Of a DNA stretch of 64,000 bases, positions 16,289 through 23,643 are shown one piece after another (position 1 is the first letter of the stretch; every line of letters starts with the position of its first letter). The notes under the pieces are model-generated. The model had not been told where the DNA came from. It made no database searches and saw nothing but the letters and a program-made list of their open reading frames with translations. Location: contig CAVPPB010000002.1 of NCBI GenBank assembly GCA_963707215.1, positions 1 through 64,000 of the forward strand. Direction: 5' to 3'. The stretch comes from an uncultured Chloroflexia bacterium. Its GTDB lineage: Bacteria > Chloroflexota > Limnocylindria > Limnocylindrales > CSP1-4. The position numbers were made by a program, and so were the translations under genes.

Positions 16289-18343
16289 TCAGCGCACGTC
16301 CCGAACGGCGGGCACGAGCAACCCGGCCAGCCCTGCCCCCAGCGTCAGCAGTCCACCGAGGATCAGCACACTGCTGAGCCCGACCGCTTCGACCGCGAAA
16401 CCGCCGATGGCCATGGCCATGGTCAGGGCCCCGTAGACGAGGGCGAACCGGAAGCCGACGACGCGTCCGATCATGTCGGGCGGGGTCCGCTCCTGGAACA
16501 TCGTCTGGCTGGGGATGATGTAGACCATGTTGGCGATGCCGCCGCCGACCAGCAGCCCGATGGCCACCCCCAGGTCGCCGGTCAGCGCGAGGCCGATCGT
16601 CGTCAGCCCGGCCAGCGTGTACCCCACGATCACCAGGCGACCCTTGGCGATCCGCGCTCCGATGAGCCCGATGACGAACCCGCCGACGAGGTTGCCGATC
16701 CCGAAGCCGGTCTCCAGCAGGCCATAGACCGCGGTCGGCTCGAGCGTGCCCTGGATGGCCTGGGCCGCGTAGATCGGGGTGATGGCGATCATCACGCCGG
16801 CCGCGAACTGTCCGGCGACCCCCTGGAACGTGTTCGCCAGCAGGACCGTCTCCCGGCGGAGGAACCGCCAGCCGATCATCAGCTCCGAGGCGATGCCGCG
16901 GATACCGGCCGCGACCGGTGCGCTCCGGACGACCGGCGGGACGCTGACGGAGGCGATCAGCACCGCCGAGGCGACGTAGGTGATGCCGTCGAGCCAGAAG
17001 GCAAGCGGGAGCGAGGCACCGAGGAAGGCCACGAAGATGCCGGCCAGGGGGTATCCGATGATGTCGGCCATCGTCTCCCCGAGCCAGGTCGCCGAGTTCG
17101 CCGTCACCAGGTCCCGCTCGCGGACGATGCGCGGGATGATCGCCGTCCTGGCCGGGCGGAAGAAGATCGAGATCGTCGTGATGACGAAGACCAGCGGGTA
17201 GACGAGGGCCAGGTTGACCGAGGCCGCGACGGGGATGATCACGACCGCGGCAGCTCGCAGGAGGTCCGAGACGACCATGACCTGGCGCTGGTCCCAGCGG
17301 TCGACGAGCGTGCCGGCGATCGGCCCGAAGAGCAGGTTCGGGAGCGTCGCAGCGACGAACACGAGCCCGACTGCGGCCGCCGACCCCGTGGCTTCCAGGA
17401 CCAGGAAGGCCATCGCCACCTGGTGGATCCGATCCCCGAACAGCGAGATGACCTGGCCGACCCAGAGCGACAGGAAGCGGCCGTCGAGCGCGAGGCTGAC
17501 GTACGGATGCCGCATCGCCCGCTCGACGACGCTCGGCGCCTCGGCCCTCCGGACGACGGCCGCATCGCCGGCCCGGACCGCCTCCGGGTCGAGCGGCAGG
17601 GGGGCCAGCGCCGGGGCGGCCAGGCCCGGTGCCGTCCCGGCGAGGACCAGGGGGCGTTCCAGCGCGGCTGCATCGGCAAGGCCCGGGTAGAGGCCCGTCT
17701 CCGCCCGCACCCGACCACGCCCCATGACCGAGGCGACGCCGCGCGGCAGCCGTGCCGCAGCAGCCAGCCCGGCGAAGGGTCCATCGAGCTCCAGCGGCTC
17801 ATCGGGACGGCGGACGAGCGAGGCGAACAGGAAGAATCCGAGGCCGACCGCGAGGAAGACGTCCCCGATGGATGCGACGTTCTGGATGATCGGCATCGGG
17901 ATGATGTCGGCGAGCGGACCCAGGGCCGCCAGGAACTCCGCGTCGAGCTCCGTGCTCAGGACGACGTGGAAGGGCGAGGTGACGTCGGCAGCGGTCAGGC
18001 CGATCGCCTGGAGACTCGACTCCCAGATCGGCATCCGTCCGCCGTTCACGACGACGACGAGGCCGTTGAGGGCCACGCCGATGAAGGCGATCAGCAGTCC
18101 CGGGTAGCGCCGGTTCGCCCACAGCCCAAGGGCGAGGATCCCGAATGCCGTGGCCATCAGGGGGAGCTGCAGGGTGACGGCCGCCTGGACCTCGGCGTTG
18201 AGGGCGACCTCGGTGCCGAACCGGACGACGACGGCCCCGAAGAGCAGCCCGGCCCAGCGCAGACGGACGCCCGCGAGGTGGTCGAGTCGACCCCCTGCCA
18301 GGAGACCCGCGATCAGACCGAGGGCGACGCCGGCGAGCAGCAC
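16289..18343 (-). CDS. DUF5317-like membrane domain fused to an MFS (DHA3/MFS_3-type) exporter
   Basis: N-terminus LLAGGRLDHLAGVRLRW...NGLVVVVNGGRMPI...LADIIP...SIGDVFL; C-terminus LWVGQVISLFGD, GTLVDRWDQRQVMVVSDLLRA, FQERTPPDMIGRV; single intact 684-aa ORF. Confidence 0.85.
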   Translation of the reverse strand: MLLAGVALGLIAGLLAGGRLDHLAGVRLRWAGLLFGAVVVRFGTEVALNAEVQAAVTLQLPLMATAFGILALGLWANRRYPGLLIAFIGVALNGLVVVVNGGRMPIWESSLQAIGLTAADVTSPFHVVLSTELDAEFLAALGPLADIIPMPIIQNVASIGDVFLAVGLGFFLFASLVRRPDEPLELDGPFAGLAAAARLPRGVASVMGRGRVRAETGLYPGLADAAALERPLVLAGTAPGLAAPALAPLPLDPEAVRAGDAAVVRRAEAPSVVERAMRHPYVSLALDGRFLSLWVGQVISLFGDRIHQVAMAFLVLEATGSAAAVGLVFVAATLPNLLFGPIAGTLVDRWDQRQVMVVSDLLRAAAVVIIPVAASVNLALVYPLVFVITTISIFFRPARTAIIPRIVRERDLVTANSATWLGETMADIIGYPLAGIFVAFLGASLPLAFWLDGITYVASAVLIASVSVPPVVRSAPVAAGIRGIASELMIGWRFLRRETVLLANTFQGVAGQFAAGVMIAITPIYAAQAIQGTLEPTAVYGLLETGFGIGNLVGGFVIGLIGARIAKGRLVIVGYTLAGLTTIGLALTGDLGVAIGLLVGGGIANMVYIIPSQTMFQERTPPDMIGRVVGFRFALVYGALTMAMAIGGFAVEAVGLSSVLILGGLLTLGAGLAGLLVPAVRDVR

Positions 18344-18489
18344 CTGCTCAGGGTACGGTGCGAGGGGTCCGCGATGGCGGTCGGGTGGGCGGCGTCAGGG
18401 CAGCGGAGCCGGGTCGGCGGGATGGTGCCTCGGTGGCGTGGACCGGCTCGGGCCGCCGTTCCACGGCCTTGATCGCGATCGGTCGCCGG

Positions 18490-23300: not shown

Positions 23301-23643
23301 CCAGGTCGCGGAGCATCGCCGCCGTCGTTGGCGCGAACGTCGGGACCAGCCGCCGGCCCGCGGCGACCAGATAGTTCAGGAAGGCGACGGGATCCCGATC
23401 CTCCTCGTCGAGGCGGTACCAGAGCGTCGCCAGGCGGGTCCGGCTCGCGAAGTCTGCCAGCAGGGTCGTCTTCCCGTAGCCGGCCTCCGCGACCACCGTC
23501 ACGACGCGGTGGTGGATCCGGCGGTCCAGCCACCCAAGGAGCCGTTCTCGATGCAGGATCCCGTCGCGCAGGGGCGGGGCCTCCAACTTCTCGGCCTGGA
23601 CCGGGAAGCGGGCTGTCTCGGCGGTGACGCCCAGCTCGTTCAT
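20367..23643 (-). CDS. MalT-like STAND ATPase / TPR / winged-helix-BTAD transcriptional regulator (frameshift near 20490)
   Basis: KLEAPPLR, Walker A AEAGYGKTT, LILDDLQ, RTQGWAA, RYHPLVRDFL; C-terminus RKALALLAFLL, RDQVIDALWPD, LHQTLYFVRR, AEQYAHYARALRD. Confidence 0.9.

What the first reader, a model, noticed from the sequence alone, without database searches (positions are those of the whole stretch)
16289..23643. Candidate peptide-signalling system wired to cyclic di-GMP: STAND/BTAD regulator, tiny peptide, membrane HD-GYP, DUF5317-MFS fusion
Seen: four co-oriented minus-strand genes. They are a ~1090-aa MalT-like ATPase/TPR/BTAD activator, an unannotated 25-29 aa peptide (...LATALAAIAAVALAGGASLKGF*), an HD-GYP enzyme with intact HD and GYP motifs behind a multi-TM sensor, and a DUF5317-like membrane domain fused to an MFS exporter. 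Established: HD-GYP domains hydrolyse cyclic dinucleotides, and agr-type quorum systems use the layout precursor peptide + membrane processing enzyme + membrane receptor. Inference: the peptide is the precursor, DUF5317 (conserved N-x-NGG-x-MP and SIGD residues) matures it, the MFS exports it, and the HD-GYP sensor rather than a histidine kinase is the receptor. The BTAD regulator would drive the operon. I recall DUF5317 often neighbouring HD-GYP genes, but I know of no characterised function.
Basis: partly seen in the sequence, partly recalled or inferred. Interest (0 to 1): 0.9.

Follow-up and report, generated by a model that had tools for sequence, protein, structure and literature searches.

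The report
Riboswitch-controlled tiny peptides beside c-di-GMP phosphodiesterase

Summary
The four minus-strand genes exist: a STAND/TPR/BTAD regulator, a small ORF, a membrane HD-GYP and a DUF5317-MFS fusion.

The 29-codon ORF is a genuine gene. It has a fixed length, many synonymous changes and three different stop codons. It lies upstream of the HD-GYP gene in 55 of 58 related loci. Look-alike small ORFs flank DUF5317/HD-GYP in 13 of 20 loci from other Chloroflexota classes.

The HD-GYP sensor is a MASE9 domain. DUF5317 folds with confidence but matches no solved structure.

Best reading: c-di-GMP turns the riboswitch on. The riboswitch output is the small peptides. These act on the co-encoded phosphodiesterase and transporter, closing a feedback loop on c-di-GMP. 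Whether the peptide stays in the membrane or releases a 5-residue signal is open.

The agr analogy is not supported. A TPR-receptor (RRNPP-like) layout fits better.

The window's own copy carries about seven frameshifts within 1.1 kb. This is probably a local assembly fault, possibly decay.

The parts
20335..23745 (-). STAND ATPase / TPR / winged-helix + BTAD regulator. The conserved C-terminal end lies in another frame that stops at 20367.
   Evidence: Pfam AAA_22, AAA_16 and Trans_reg_C. MalT N-terminal match. Alternative-frame C-terminus ...LYRTAGAHAAAAEQYAHYARALRDMGESPLPLSEI*. BTAD above cut-off in 3 of 3 orthologs. Present upstream in 58 of 58 HD-GYP-bearing loci.
20309..20338 (-). Promoter-like site P1: TTGACC, 18 nt, TATAGT.
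   Evidence: 10 of 12 consensus matches. One site found against 0.1 expected in shuffles. The same boxes are seen in related loci.
20280..20298 (-). Conserved inverted repeat (consensus CTAGTAC-N5-GTACTAG) between the -10 box and the riboswitch.
   Evidence: Seen by eye in the window and 8 related loci printed. Function unknown: operator or 5' hairpin.
20184..20267 (-). c-di-GMP-II riboswitch aptamer (RF01786).
   Evidence: 59.6 bits against gathering 53.5, E 1.9e-11, full model 1-84. Same family at the same place in 7 of 12, 6 of 20 and 11 of 12 related loci.
20172..20200 (-). Terminator-like hairpin. Its 5' arm (ACCGACC) is the 3' strand of the aptamer's closing helix, followed by 3-5 T.
   Evidence: Sequence. 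Part of the minimum-free-energy fold. Stem kept with a variable loop in 43 distinct related sequences. Not called by the strict T-run scan.
20098..20131 (-). Mini-ORF (family consensus M-A-P-E-x-x-x-K-[GSAP]-[WF]-stop) behind an AAGGAGG box at 20139-20145. In the window one extra base puts its end out of frame.
   Evidence: Found in 44 of 58 related loci. 73 unique mini-ORF/peptide pairs listed.
19987..20077 (-). Small peptide gene. The in-frame ORF runs 19987-20064 (25 aa from GTG). The conserved ATG at 20077 (MKDR...) is displaced by one extra base. Orthologs have 29 codons.
   Evidence: Peptide profile hits in 190 of 401 class genomes. No Pfam or NCBIfam family.
19945..19950 (-). -10-like TAGAGT of a possible second promoter, between the peptide gene and HD-GYP.
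   Evidence: At least 80% conserved TAGAGT/TACAGT, with a TTAC-like box about 18 nt upstream, in 47 aligned loci. Not called by the consensus scan in the window.
18490..19917 (-). MASE9-HD-GYP phosphodiesterase gene. The catalytic part is an intact ORF (18490-19398). The N-terminal membrane sensor is broken over three frames.
   Evidence: HD_5 135.8 bits. Frames. Orthologs are intact at 450-484 aa in 8 of 11 sources. MASE9 matched in 13 of 15 orthologs.
16289..18343 (-). DUF5317 (about 17828-18268) fused to a 12-TM MFS efflux-type transporter (about 16313-17476).
   Evidence: Full-length orthologs at 50-91% identity in the family. AlphaFold2 model of the DUF5317 domain: pLDDT 90.4, pTM 0.84.

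Best explanation
This is the local copy of a module conserved in Chloroflexota. It comprises a STAND/TPR/BTAD regulator, one or two tiny peptide genes, a MASE9-HD-GYP c-di-GMP phosphodiesterase, and DUF5317 with or without an MFS transporter.

In the class to which the window's closest named relatives belong (Candidatus Limnocylindria by their record titles), the tiny genes form the first transcription unit. This unit holds a near-consensus promoter, a c-di-GMP-II riboswitch whose closing helix competes with a terminator-like hairpin (an ON switch), a ~10-codon mini-ORF, and a 29-codon ORF with a basic N-terminus, a 13-16-residue hydrophobic core, A-G-G-A and a 5-residue tail. A second, weaker promoter-like site precedes HD-GYP and DUF5317-MFS.

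Proposed working:
1. High c-di-GMP lets transcription read into the small ORFs.
2. Their peptide products are the riboswitch's output.
3. The peptides act on the co-encoded membrane proteins and so set how fast c-di-GMP is destroyed. This is feedback on the messenger.

I rate a membrane-retained micro-protein acting on the MASE9 sensor at about 40%. I rate a processed, released short peptide at about 30%.

Shown: the riboswitch, the translated small gene, the gene linkage and the domain identities. Inferred: the ON logic, the peptide's target and the sign of the feedback.

The window's own copy is garbled by about seven single- or few-base indels. This is most likely a local assembly fault.
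For: Riboswitch. RF01786 scores above gathering in the window and in 7 of 12, 6 of 20 and 11 of 12 related loci. An aptamer-core pattern is found in 42 of 58 loci. All 11 pattern-negative family loci that I sent to Rfam scored above gathering.

ON design. The hairpin's 5' arm is the aptamer's own 3' strand. The stem is conserved with a variable loop and a T-run in 43 distinct sequences. Class II riboswitches are described as ON switches in C. difficile (PMC13724677, passages read).

The small ORF is translated.
- It has 29 codons in 7 of 10 sequences compared.
- The conserved LAGGASLRGF is encoded with many synonymous codons.
- TAG, TAA and TGA all occur at the same position.
- Third codon positions differ most: 0.64 against 0.45 and 0.38 for the first two.

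Linkage.
- A profile of the peptide finds it in 96 of 137 family genomes and 190 of 401 class genomes.
- 19 of 20 fetched hits from two other families lie just upstream of HD-GYP, DUF5317 and MFS.
- Of 80 DUF5317-MFS loci, 62 have enough upstream DNA and 58 of these have HD-GYP directly upstream. Of the 58, 43 have the full in-frame peptide ORF, 12 a partial or out-of-frame one and 3 none by the profile.
- One genus missed by the profile has a diverged version.
- In another genus the regulator, riboswitch, mini-ORF and peptide stay with HD-GYP although DUF5317-MFS is 62 kb away.
- In 20 loci from other Chloroflexota classes, HD-GYP is within 4.5 kb of DUF5317 in 15 and the STAND regulator in 11. 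Small ORFs with a hydrophobic helix plus A-[GS]-G-A are found in 13.

Sensor. MASE9 matched 13 of 15 orthologs, with a best E of 3e-9. Its describers propose ligand binding within the membrane (bioRxiv 10.1101/2021.11.05.467447, passages read).

Second promoter. A conserved -10-like box lies between the peptide gene and HD-GYP in 47 loci. One family has a GC hairpin plus T-run after the peptide gene.

Precedent. Small membrane proteins are the outputs of c-di-GMP riboswitches in C. difficile (PMC13724677; abstract, section 7 and passages read).
Against: - No expression or binding data exist. The one public run found did not cover the small ORFs.
- The terminator-like hairpin has only 3-5 T and fails a strict terminator scan.
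- The second promoter is a weak consensus match that the scan did not call in the window.
- The window copy cannot make a full-length HD-GYP as written.
- The shared C-terminal tripeptide of the cytoplasm-type mini-ORF and the membrane-type peptide is not explained by a simple membrane-subunit model.
- The small -3/-1 residues before the tail fit signal-peptidase cleavage rather than retention. Against that, Pro directly after the invariant Ala in 6 homologs of other classes argues against such cleavage.
- One family (5 loci fetched) has the peptide but no c-di-GMP-II aptamer at gathering. Riboswitch control is therefore not universal.
Confidence: 0.55

Rival explanations
1. RRNPP/Phr-like peptide signalling. 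The 29-residue product is a signal peptide plus a pentapeptide (for example SLRGF). It is cleaved after the invariant Ala and released. The free peptide is sensed by the TPR domain of the adjacent STAND regulator after uptake, or at the outer face of MASE9. The regulator then drives the weak promoter in front of HD-GYP and DUF5317-MFS. The riboswitch makes signal production depend on c-di-GMP.
For: - The peptide has an n-h-c anatomy, with an h-region of 13-16 residues.
- The only invariant column in both peptide alignments is the Ala before the tail, and a small residue sits at -3.
- The tails vary between lineages: RGF, KGF, KGW, RPF, NGF and others.
- The gene lies directly downstream of a TPR-bearing DNA-binding regulator in 58 of 58 loci.
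- Two tandem identical copies occur in one locus.
- One family has a strong RBS and a terminator-like hairpin after the gene.
- An efflux-type MFS is fused or adjacent.
- The mini-ORF carries the same C-terminal tripeptide more often than shuffling gives: 13 of 73 against 4.3 expected.
Against: - A 29-residue precursor is shorter than the Phr precursors I recall (recalled, not checked).
- Pro follows the invariant Ala in 6 homologs of other classes, which would block signal peptidase I.
- The tail is the same (RGF) in 30 of 73 unique pairs across many genera. That is less private than typical pheromones.
- No oligopeptide importer was seen in the module.
- There is no evidence of secretion.
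Confidence: 0.2
2. DUF5317 matures the peptide, the fused MFS exports it, and the MASE9 sensor of HD-GYP is the receptor.
For: - The peptide gene lies immediately upstream of DUF5317 in several loci of other classes, with stop-to-start gaps of 3-50 nt.
- DUF5317 has invariant polar residues inside the membrane: N77, N93, N100, D146, S158 and D161.
- The MFS is of the efflux type.
- MASE9 is thought to bind its ligand in the membrane.
Against: - DUF5317 has no detectable likeness to AgrB or to any solved protease.
- There is no histidine kinase, and 0 of 21 aligned peptides has a Cys.
- In one genus the peptide stays with HD-GYP while DUF5317-MFS is 62 kb away.
- A DUF5317 paralog in this genome sits beside a GGDEF-EAL protein and an MMPL transporter, where I looked for no peptide gene.
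Confidence: 0.1
3. The small ORFs are only cis-acting leader peptides. Their translation, or stalling at the conserved [KR]-x-aromatic-stop, tunes termination or translation of the downstream genes. The peptides themselves have no function.
For: - Both ORFs sit in the leader behind a riboswitch.
- Both end in basic-small-aromatic-stop, and the mini-ORF nearly always ends AAG-NNN-TGG/TTC-stop. A shared reader could be the ribosome.
Against: - The 29-residue ORF keeps its hydrophobic core and A-G-G-A motif across three families and has look-alikes in other classes with different leaders and different downstream genes.
- One family separates it from HD-GYP by a terminator-like hairpin.
- One locus has two tandem copies.
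Confidence: 0.1
4. In this particular genome the module is a decaying pseudogene cluster, not a working system. The frameshifts are real.
For: - About seven indels lie between 19330 and 20450. They hit the regulator's end, the mini-ORF, the peptide start and the HD-GYP sensor.
- rpoB and rpoC are each in one open frame, so the assembly is not riddled with errors everywhere.
Against: - The indels are confined to 1.1 kb, while the other ~6.3 kb of the module has none. Neutral decay should spread.
- Residue identity in the shifted frames is still 77% to the same-genus relative.
- Another frameshift hits an epimerase gene near 12990.
- Completeness is 84.8% for only 5 contigs.
- 12 of 58 related loci show the same kind of out-of-frame peptide start.
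Confidence: 0.2

Closest known systems
c-di-GMP-II riboswitch (Rfam RF01786), class II ON switches of Clostridioides difficile
   Same: Full-length aptamer match above the gathering score. The terminator-like hairpin competes with the aptamer's closing helix, as in ON switches.
   Different: The host is a Chloroflexota lineage. The regulated genes are two tiny ORFs followed by a c-di-GMP phosphodiesterase. Ligand binding and switching were not tested.
Small membrane-associated proteins behind class I c-di-GMP riboswitches in C. difficile (CD1980.2 family; PMC13724677)
   Same: A c-di-GMP riboswitch whose direct output is a small hydrophobic protein that earlier annotation missed.
   Different: Those proteins have 58 residues, follow class I OFF switches, have no relatives outside C. 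difficile by the authors' account, and act on sporulation. Here the peptide has 25-32 residues, follows class II, and is tied to HD-GYP, DUF5317 and a STAND regulator. No sequence likeness was tested.
MASE9-HD-GYP phosphodiesterases (TM1467 of Thermotoga maritima, HdgA of Streptomyces venezuelae; Galperin and Chou preprint)
   Same: The same domain pair: MASE9 in 13 of 15 orthologs and HD_5 in 15 of 15.
   Different: No partner peptide, DUF5317 link or riboswitch is mentioned in the passages I read. The terms DUF5317 and riboswitch occur 0 times in that text.
RRNPP systems (Rap/Phr, PlcR/PapR, NprR/NprX, AimR/AimP); recalled, not checked here
   Same: A TPR-bearing regulator gene is followed by a small ORF with a signal-peptide-like start, whose business end would be the C-terminal 5-7 residues.
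   Different: The regulator here is a ~1100-residue STAND ATPase with a C-terminal winged helix plus BTAD. No Opp importer was seen. A riboswitch, a phosphodiesterase and DUF5317 belong to the module. Secretion is not shown.
Small single-pass regulators of membrane sensors and pumps (MgrB, SafA, AcrZ, KdpF); recalled, not checked here
   Same: Under 50 residues, one hydrophobic helix, encoded beside the presumed partner.
   Different: No sequence relation is known. Binding is not shown. The conserved C-terminal tail and its twin on a second mini-ORF have no counterpart that I know of.
agr quorum sensing (AgrD/AgrB/AgrC/AgrA)
   Same: A small peptide gene beside membrane proteins.
   Different: No AgrB family match, no histidine kinase or response regulator, and no Cys in the peptide.

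Membership tests
c-di-GMP-II riboswitch (RF01786) | Covariance-model score at or above Rfam's gathering score over the whole aptamer | tested here: met
   59.6 bits against 53.5, model positions 1-84 of 84.
c-di-GMP-II riboswitch (RF01786) | Kept at the same place in related genomes | tested here: met
   7 of 12, 6 of 20 and 11 of 12 loci at gathering. None in the 5 loci of family f3.
c-di-GMP-II riboswitch (RF01786) | Binds c-di-GMP and changes expression | not testable with these tools
   Needs in-line probing or reporter assays.
HD-GYP phosphodiesterase (Pfam HD_5) | HD_5 profile match with HD and GYP motifs | tested here: met
   135.8 bits against a cut-off of 27.2. HDVGKIG and HHEWYNGSGYP are present.
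HD-GYP phosphodiesterase (Pfam HD_5) | One uninterrupted gene in this window | tested here: not met
   The sensor part lies in other frames, with at least 4 frame changes. Orthologs are intact in 8 of 11 sources.
MASE9 sensor domain (PF20972) | Profile match in the N-terminal membrane part | tested here: met
   13 of 15 orthologs at E up to 10, with a best E of 3e-9. The first member scores 26.1 bits against a cut-off of 24.3. The window's broken pieces gave no hit.
DUF5317 (PF17248) | Profile match above the cut-off | tested here: met
   85.8 bits against 25. Three copies in the genome. 5751 cluster representatives at E up to 0.001.
MFS efflux transporters (PF07690, PF05977, TIGR00900) | Profile match over 12 TM segments | tested here: met
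   MFS_1 113.8 and MFS_3 114.8 bits. TIGR00900 scores 197.6 bits, below its cut-off of 319.6.
STAND / MalT-like regulator with BTAD | P-loop STAND ATPase, TPR sensor, winged helix plus BTAD | tested here: met
   Window: AAA_22 29.6 bits (cut-off 27), a MalT match at E 5e-63 that is below that model's cut-off, weak Trans_reg_C at 19.5 bits (cut-off 26.2), and no BTAD. Orthologs: BTAD 28-33 bits against a cut-off of 22.1 in 3 of 3, with TPR hits below their cut-offs.
agr-type quorum sensing | AgrB-family maturase, AgrC histidine kinase, Cys-containing AgrD | tested here: not met
   No such Pfam family matched any of the module's proteins. 0 of 21 aligned peptides has a Cys.
Sec-type signal peptide with signal-peptidase I site | Basic n-region, h-region of 10-16 residues, small residues at -3 and -1, no Pro at +1 | tested here: inconclusive
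   Met in the window's class. Pro at +1 occurs in 6 look-alikes of other classes. No signal-peptide predictor was on hand.
GxGD-type or other intramembrane protease (considered for DUF5317) | Fold or sequence likeness to a solved intramembrane protease | tested here: inconclusive
   The best Foldseek E-value is 2.3. The best VIA-align Z is 8.2, to generic helical proteins. There is no PDB sequence match at E below 0.33.

The most novel reading that the evidence does not exclude
A second-messenger-gated peptide signalling system.
- The c-di-GMP-II riboswitch licenses synthesis of two peptides that share a C-terminal [KR]-small-aromatic tail.
- The 29-mer is a pro-peptide that releases a 5-residue signal.
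- The 10-mer is a cytoplasmic or MFS-exported twin.
- The tail is read by the TPR sensor of the neighbouring STAND/BTAD regulator (RRNPP-like) or by the MASE9 sensor of the phosphodiesterase.
- DUF5317 is the missing processing or sensing partner.

If true, this would be a peptide pheromone system in Chloroflexota whose production is set by c-di-GMP and whose output is c-di-GMP turnover.
Probability: 0.2. Interest if true: 0.9.

Novelty: new variant of a known kind. Interest (0 to 1): 0.78.

Why it matters
- MASE9 and DUF5317 are widespread membrane domains with no known ligand or function. DUF5317 alone has 5751 cluster representatives.
- A conserved, co-encoded 25-35-residue peptide gives both domains a concrete candidate partner. 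It can be synthesised and tested on a purified phosphodiesterase.
- The riboswitch shows that the peptide genes, not only enzymes or adhesins, can be the direct output of c-di-GMP sensing. This extends a principle so far shown in C. difficile to another riboswitch class and phylum.
- The twin C-terminal tails of the two small ORFs are an unexplained regularity that points to a specific reader.
- The case also shows how many real genes of under 35 codons are left out of annotation. No Pfam or NCBIfam model matches this peptide, and no paper in the searched library mentions DUF5317.

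Tried and rejected
- Public reads. One run held 8% of the sampled words. When laid, its contigs covered the HD-GYP catalytic part and the riboswitch but left 19323-19819 and the small ORFs without cover. 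It therefore says nothing about the frameshifts or expression.
- Complex prediction. The 32-residue peptide of a related locus with its MASE9 domain (residues 1-235), each given as an alignment, returned 'no answer' (median 0.22, mark 0.32). This is not evidence either way.
- Fold searches with the DUF5317 model. Foldseek against the PDB found nothing at E up to 0.001. VIA-align against 48,161 chains gave a best Z of 8.2 to unrelated helical proteins. A profile search of PDB sequences gave only a carbamate kinase at E 0.33. No fold relative was found, which does not show that the fold is new.
- Genome-wide frameshift count. A heuristic based on overlapping high-GC3 frames gave 12-18 junctions per 100 kb everywhere and none in the window. 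It does not separate frameshifts from ordinary gene overlaps, so I dropped it.
- Same-genus relative. A search for the leader and regulator found only the HD-GYP piece already held.
- Reaching DUF5317 loci outside the phylum. The genome-contig scan returned only the window's class among its best 80 of 352. Thermotoga and Thermus are known to me only as control genomes that 'ring'. Whether the small ORF exists beside TM1467 or HdgA was not tested.
- Atlas lead. The ESM Atlas pointed to MASE9 at 0.93. I checked this with Pfam and do not count it separately.
- Other ideas considered and dropped: a double-glycine leader (other classes lack GG); a secretion-monitoring arrest peptide (29 residues would not leave the ribosome tunnel; my reasoning); mimicry of DUF5317's first helix (opposite predicted orientation; my reasoning).
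- Literature searches. These gave 0 papers for DUF5317, 0 for Limnocylindria with c-di-GMP, 2 for MASE9 and 2 for c-di-GMP-II-GAG (listing only, not read). Supplements were not consulted. The MASE9 figures S5 and the C. difficile supplementary alignments could bear on likeness to the peptide.

Full report
What is in the window. On the minus strand between 16289 and 23745 lie four elements. The first is a 1136-codon ORF for a STAND ATPase/TPR/winged-helix regulator. The second is a short ORF ending ...LAGGASLKGF. The third is an HD-GYP gene. The fourth is a 684-codon DUF5317-MFS fusion. The flanks are unrelated: DnaB helicase upstream, and an acidic repeat protein and a PIG-L deacetylase downstream. 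Record titles of the closest named relatives read Chloroflexota, Candidatus Limnocylindrales/Limnocylindria. The window's own assembly has 3.26 Mb in 5 contigs and 84.8% completeness.

Rfam finds a full-length c-di-GMP-II aptamer at 20184-20267 on the minus strand. It scores 59.6 bits against a gathering score of 53.5, with E 1.9e-11. It lies between the regulator's stop and the small ORF. Upstream is a promoter-like TTGACC-18-TATAGT, with one site found against 0.1 expected, and a conserved inverted repeat. Downstream the order is:
1. a hairpin whose 5' arm is the aptamer's own 3' strand, followed by a short T-run;
2. an AAGGAGG box and a mini-ORF of about ten codons that ends K-small-W/F-stop;
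3. the 29-codon ORF;
4. a conserved -10-like TAGAGT;
5. HD-GYP.

State of the window copy. Reading all three frames against intact orthologs shows that the HD-GYP sensor part switches frame at least four times between about 19840 and 19330. In ten related loci the same segments share one frame, and eight of eleven sources have an intact 450-484-residue gene. One extra base separates the conserved ATG (20077) from the body of the small ORF. One extra base breaks the mini-ORF. The regulator's BTAD end lies in another frame. That makes about seven indels in 1.1 kb, with none in the other ~6.3 kb of the module.

rpoB and rpoC are each in one frame, but an epimerase gene near 12990 is also frameshifted. 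Twelve of 58 related loci show similar out-of-frame peptide starts. A cluster this tight is not what neutral decay predicts. I put a local assembly fault at about 0.8 and real decay at about 0.2. Public reads did not cover the place.

The small ORF is a real gene. Compared across genera it keeps 29 codons in 7 of 10 sequences. It encodes the conserved L-A-G-G-A-S-L-R-G-F with many synonymous codons and uses TAG, TAA and TGA at the same position. Third codon positions differ most (0.64 against 0.45 and 0.38).

A profile of ten sequences finds it in 190 of 401 genomes of the class. By family the counts are f1 96 of 137, f2 0 of 16, f3 35 of 92, f4 58 of 153 and f5 0 of 2. The f3 count includes three unpublished genomes. 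Of 20 hits fetched from f3 and f4, 19 lie just upstream of HD-GYP followed by DUF5317 and MFS, and the twentieth is cut by a contig end. One f1 genus that the profile missed has a diverged version ending ...GGGASYRPF, so the counts are lower bounds. The peptide has 32 residues in f4 and 25 in f3. It matches no Pfam or NCBIfam model.

Linkage. Starting instead from DUF5317, 352 stretches in one-genome-per-species contigs encode a relative, and the best 80 were kept.
- 62 of the 80 have at least 2700 bases upstream.
- 58 of those 62 have HD-GYP directly upstream.
- All 58 have the regulator.
- 43 of the 58 have the full in-frame peptide ORF, 12 a partial or out-of-frame one, and 3 none by the profile. 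One of those three has a variant tail.
- 44 of the 58 have the mini-ORF.
- The aptamer-core pattern is in 42 of 58. All 11 pattern-negative f1 loci that I sent to Rfam scored above gathering. Five were not examined.

In one genus the regulator, riboswitch, mini-ORF and peptide precede HD-GYP while DUF5317-MFS lies 62 kb away. One genome carries two diverged copies of the whole cassette.

Beyond the class. DUF5317 is found in 91 of 301 sampled genomes of the phylum (the tally includes one unpublished genome). In 20 loci fetched from other classes DUF5317 is a free-standing gene. HD-GYP lies within 4.5 kb in 15 of them, the STAND regulator in 11 and an MFS in 3, in several gene orders. A pattern search found same-strand small ORFs with a basic start, a hydrophobic helix, A-[GS]-G-A and a short tail that often holds W or F in 11 of the 20. 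A profile added 2 more. Four further loci have weaker look-alikes, and three have none. One locus has two tandem identical copies behind a c-di-GMP-II-GAG variant aptamer. In this genome a DUF5317 paralog sits between an MMPL transporter and a GAF-GGDEF-EAL protein. DUF5317 thus keeps company with c-di-GMP enzymes.

Identities of the large proteins. The HD-GYP sensor is MASE9. The Atlas gave the lead, and Pfam matched 13 of 15 orthologs with a best E of 3e-9. The preprint that defined MASE9 argues that its ligand binds within the membrane and names TM1467 and HdgA. It mentions neither DUF5317 nor a riboswitch (passages read). The regulator's orthologs show BTAD above the cut-off in 3 of 3. The MFS is of the efflux type. 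The DUF5317 domain folds with pLDDT 90.4 and pTM 0.84 from a 50-row alignment, but has no convincing solved relative.

How it most likely works. The riboswitch is built as an ON switch. The ligand-bound aptamer holds the strand that the terminator-like hairpin needs, and class II switches are ON in C. difficile. Its immediate cargo is the two small ORFs. HD-GYP and DUF5317-MFS have a possible promoter of their own, and in family f3 a hairpin with a T-run separates the peptide gene from HD-GYP. I therefore read the peptides as the riboswitch's output and the membrane proteins as their targets, closing a loop on c-di-GMP. A precedent for small membrane proteins as c-di-GMP riboswitch outputs exists in C. 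difficile.

Two anatomies compete for the 29-mer:
- a retained micro-protein acting on MASE9;
- a signal peptide followed by a released 5-residue tail.

For release:
- the only invariant column in the peptide alignments is the Ala before the tail, with a small residue at -3;
- the tails vary between lineages;
- the position downstream of a TPR regulator recalls RRNPP systems.

Against release: Pro follows that Ala in six look-alikes of other classes.

An unexplained regularity. The mini-ORF and the 29-mer end in the same kind of tripeptide, basic-small-aromatic. Among 73 unique pairs the last three residues are identical in 13, against 4.3 expected on shuffling, and 0 of 5000 shuffles reach 13. 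Relatives are not independent, so this is a hint. In 9 of those 13 pairs the codons differ, for example two different Ser codons. The two paralogous cassettes of one genome pair LKPF with LKPF and LKGY with LKGF. Something reads both tails: the ribosome at termination, the regulator's TPR domain, or a site on the membrane proteins.

Verdict. The known parts are the riboswitch class, MASE9-HD-GYP, DUF5317, MFS and the STAND/BTAD regulator. The new elements are the peptide family, its twin mini-ORF and the conserved assembly of all of these. I file it as a new variant of a known kind.

Noticed in passing
G000 loci L032-L038 (own genome, outside the window): At least eight variant aptamers of the same clan: c-di-GMP-II-GAG (RF03169) seven times at 63-72 bits and c-di-GMP-II-GCG (RF03170) once at 53.3 bits. 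Each precedes an RBS and a gene whose product starts like a signal peptide.
   Followed up: partly
L181, minus strand 7075-7158 of the locus: In another Chloroflexota class a c-di-GMP-II-GAG aptamer (40.9 bits, gathering 40) lies about 180 nt upstream of two tandem identical 31-codon small ORFs, followed by HD-GYP and DUF5317.
   Followed up: partly
G000:C2:429388-436001 (locus L099): A free-standing DUF5317 paralog (222 aa) lies between an MMPL transporter (888 aa) and a GAF-GGDEF-EAL protein (856 aa). A second paralog at C2:342906-343469 has unrelated neighbours.
   Followed up: partly
window about 12660-13613, plus strand: An NAD-dependent epimerase/dehydratase gene is split by a frameshift near 12990. 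The Rossmann-fold start is in one frame, and the Pfam match to profile positions 106-240 is in another.
   Followed up: partly
window 20280-20298, minus strand, and related loci: A conserved inverted repeat (CTAGTAC-N5-GTACTAG) lies just after the -10 box and ahead of the riboswitch. It could be an operator or a 5' hairpin.
   Followed up: no
L025, oriented 8700-11700: About 3 kb is inserted between HD-GYP and DUF5317-MFS, with a 433-codon ORF on the other strand that looks like a transposase by its start. This is my impression, not tested.
   Followed up: no
L206 and L207 (one genome, two contigs): Two diverged copies (73% DNA identity) of the regulator-riboswitch-mini-ORF-peptide-HD-GYP cassette occur in one genome, with matching tail changes in both small ORFs.
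   Followed up: partly
L198, minus strand 8093-8229: A c-di-AMP riboswitch (RF00379, 97.7 bits) lies a few kb from a DUF5317 locus in another class. It is probably unrelated.
   Followed up: no
window 15381-15453, plus strand: A weak chrB-a RNA match (31.5 bits, gathering 43.9, E 0.032). It is probably chance.
   Followed up: no
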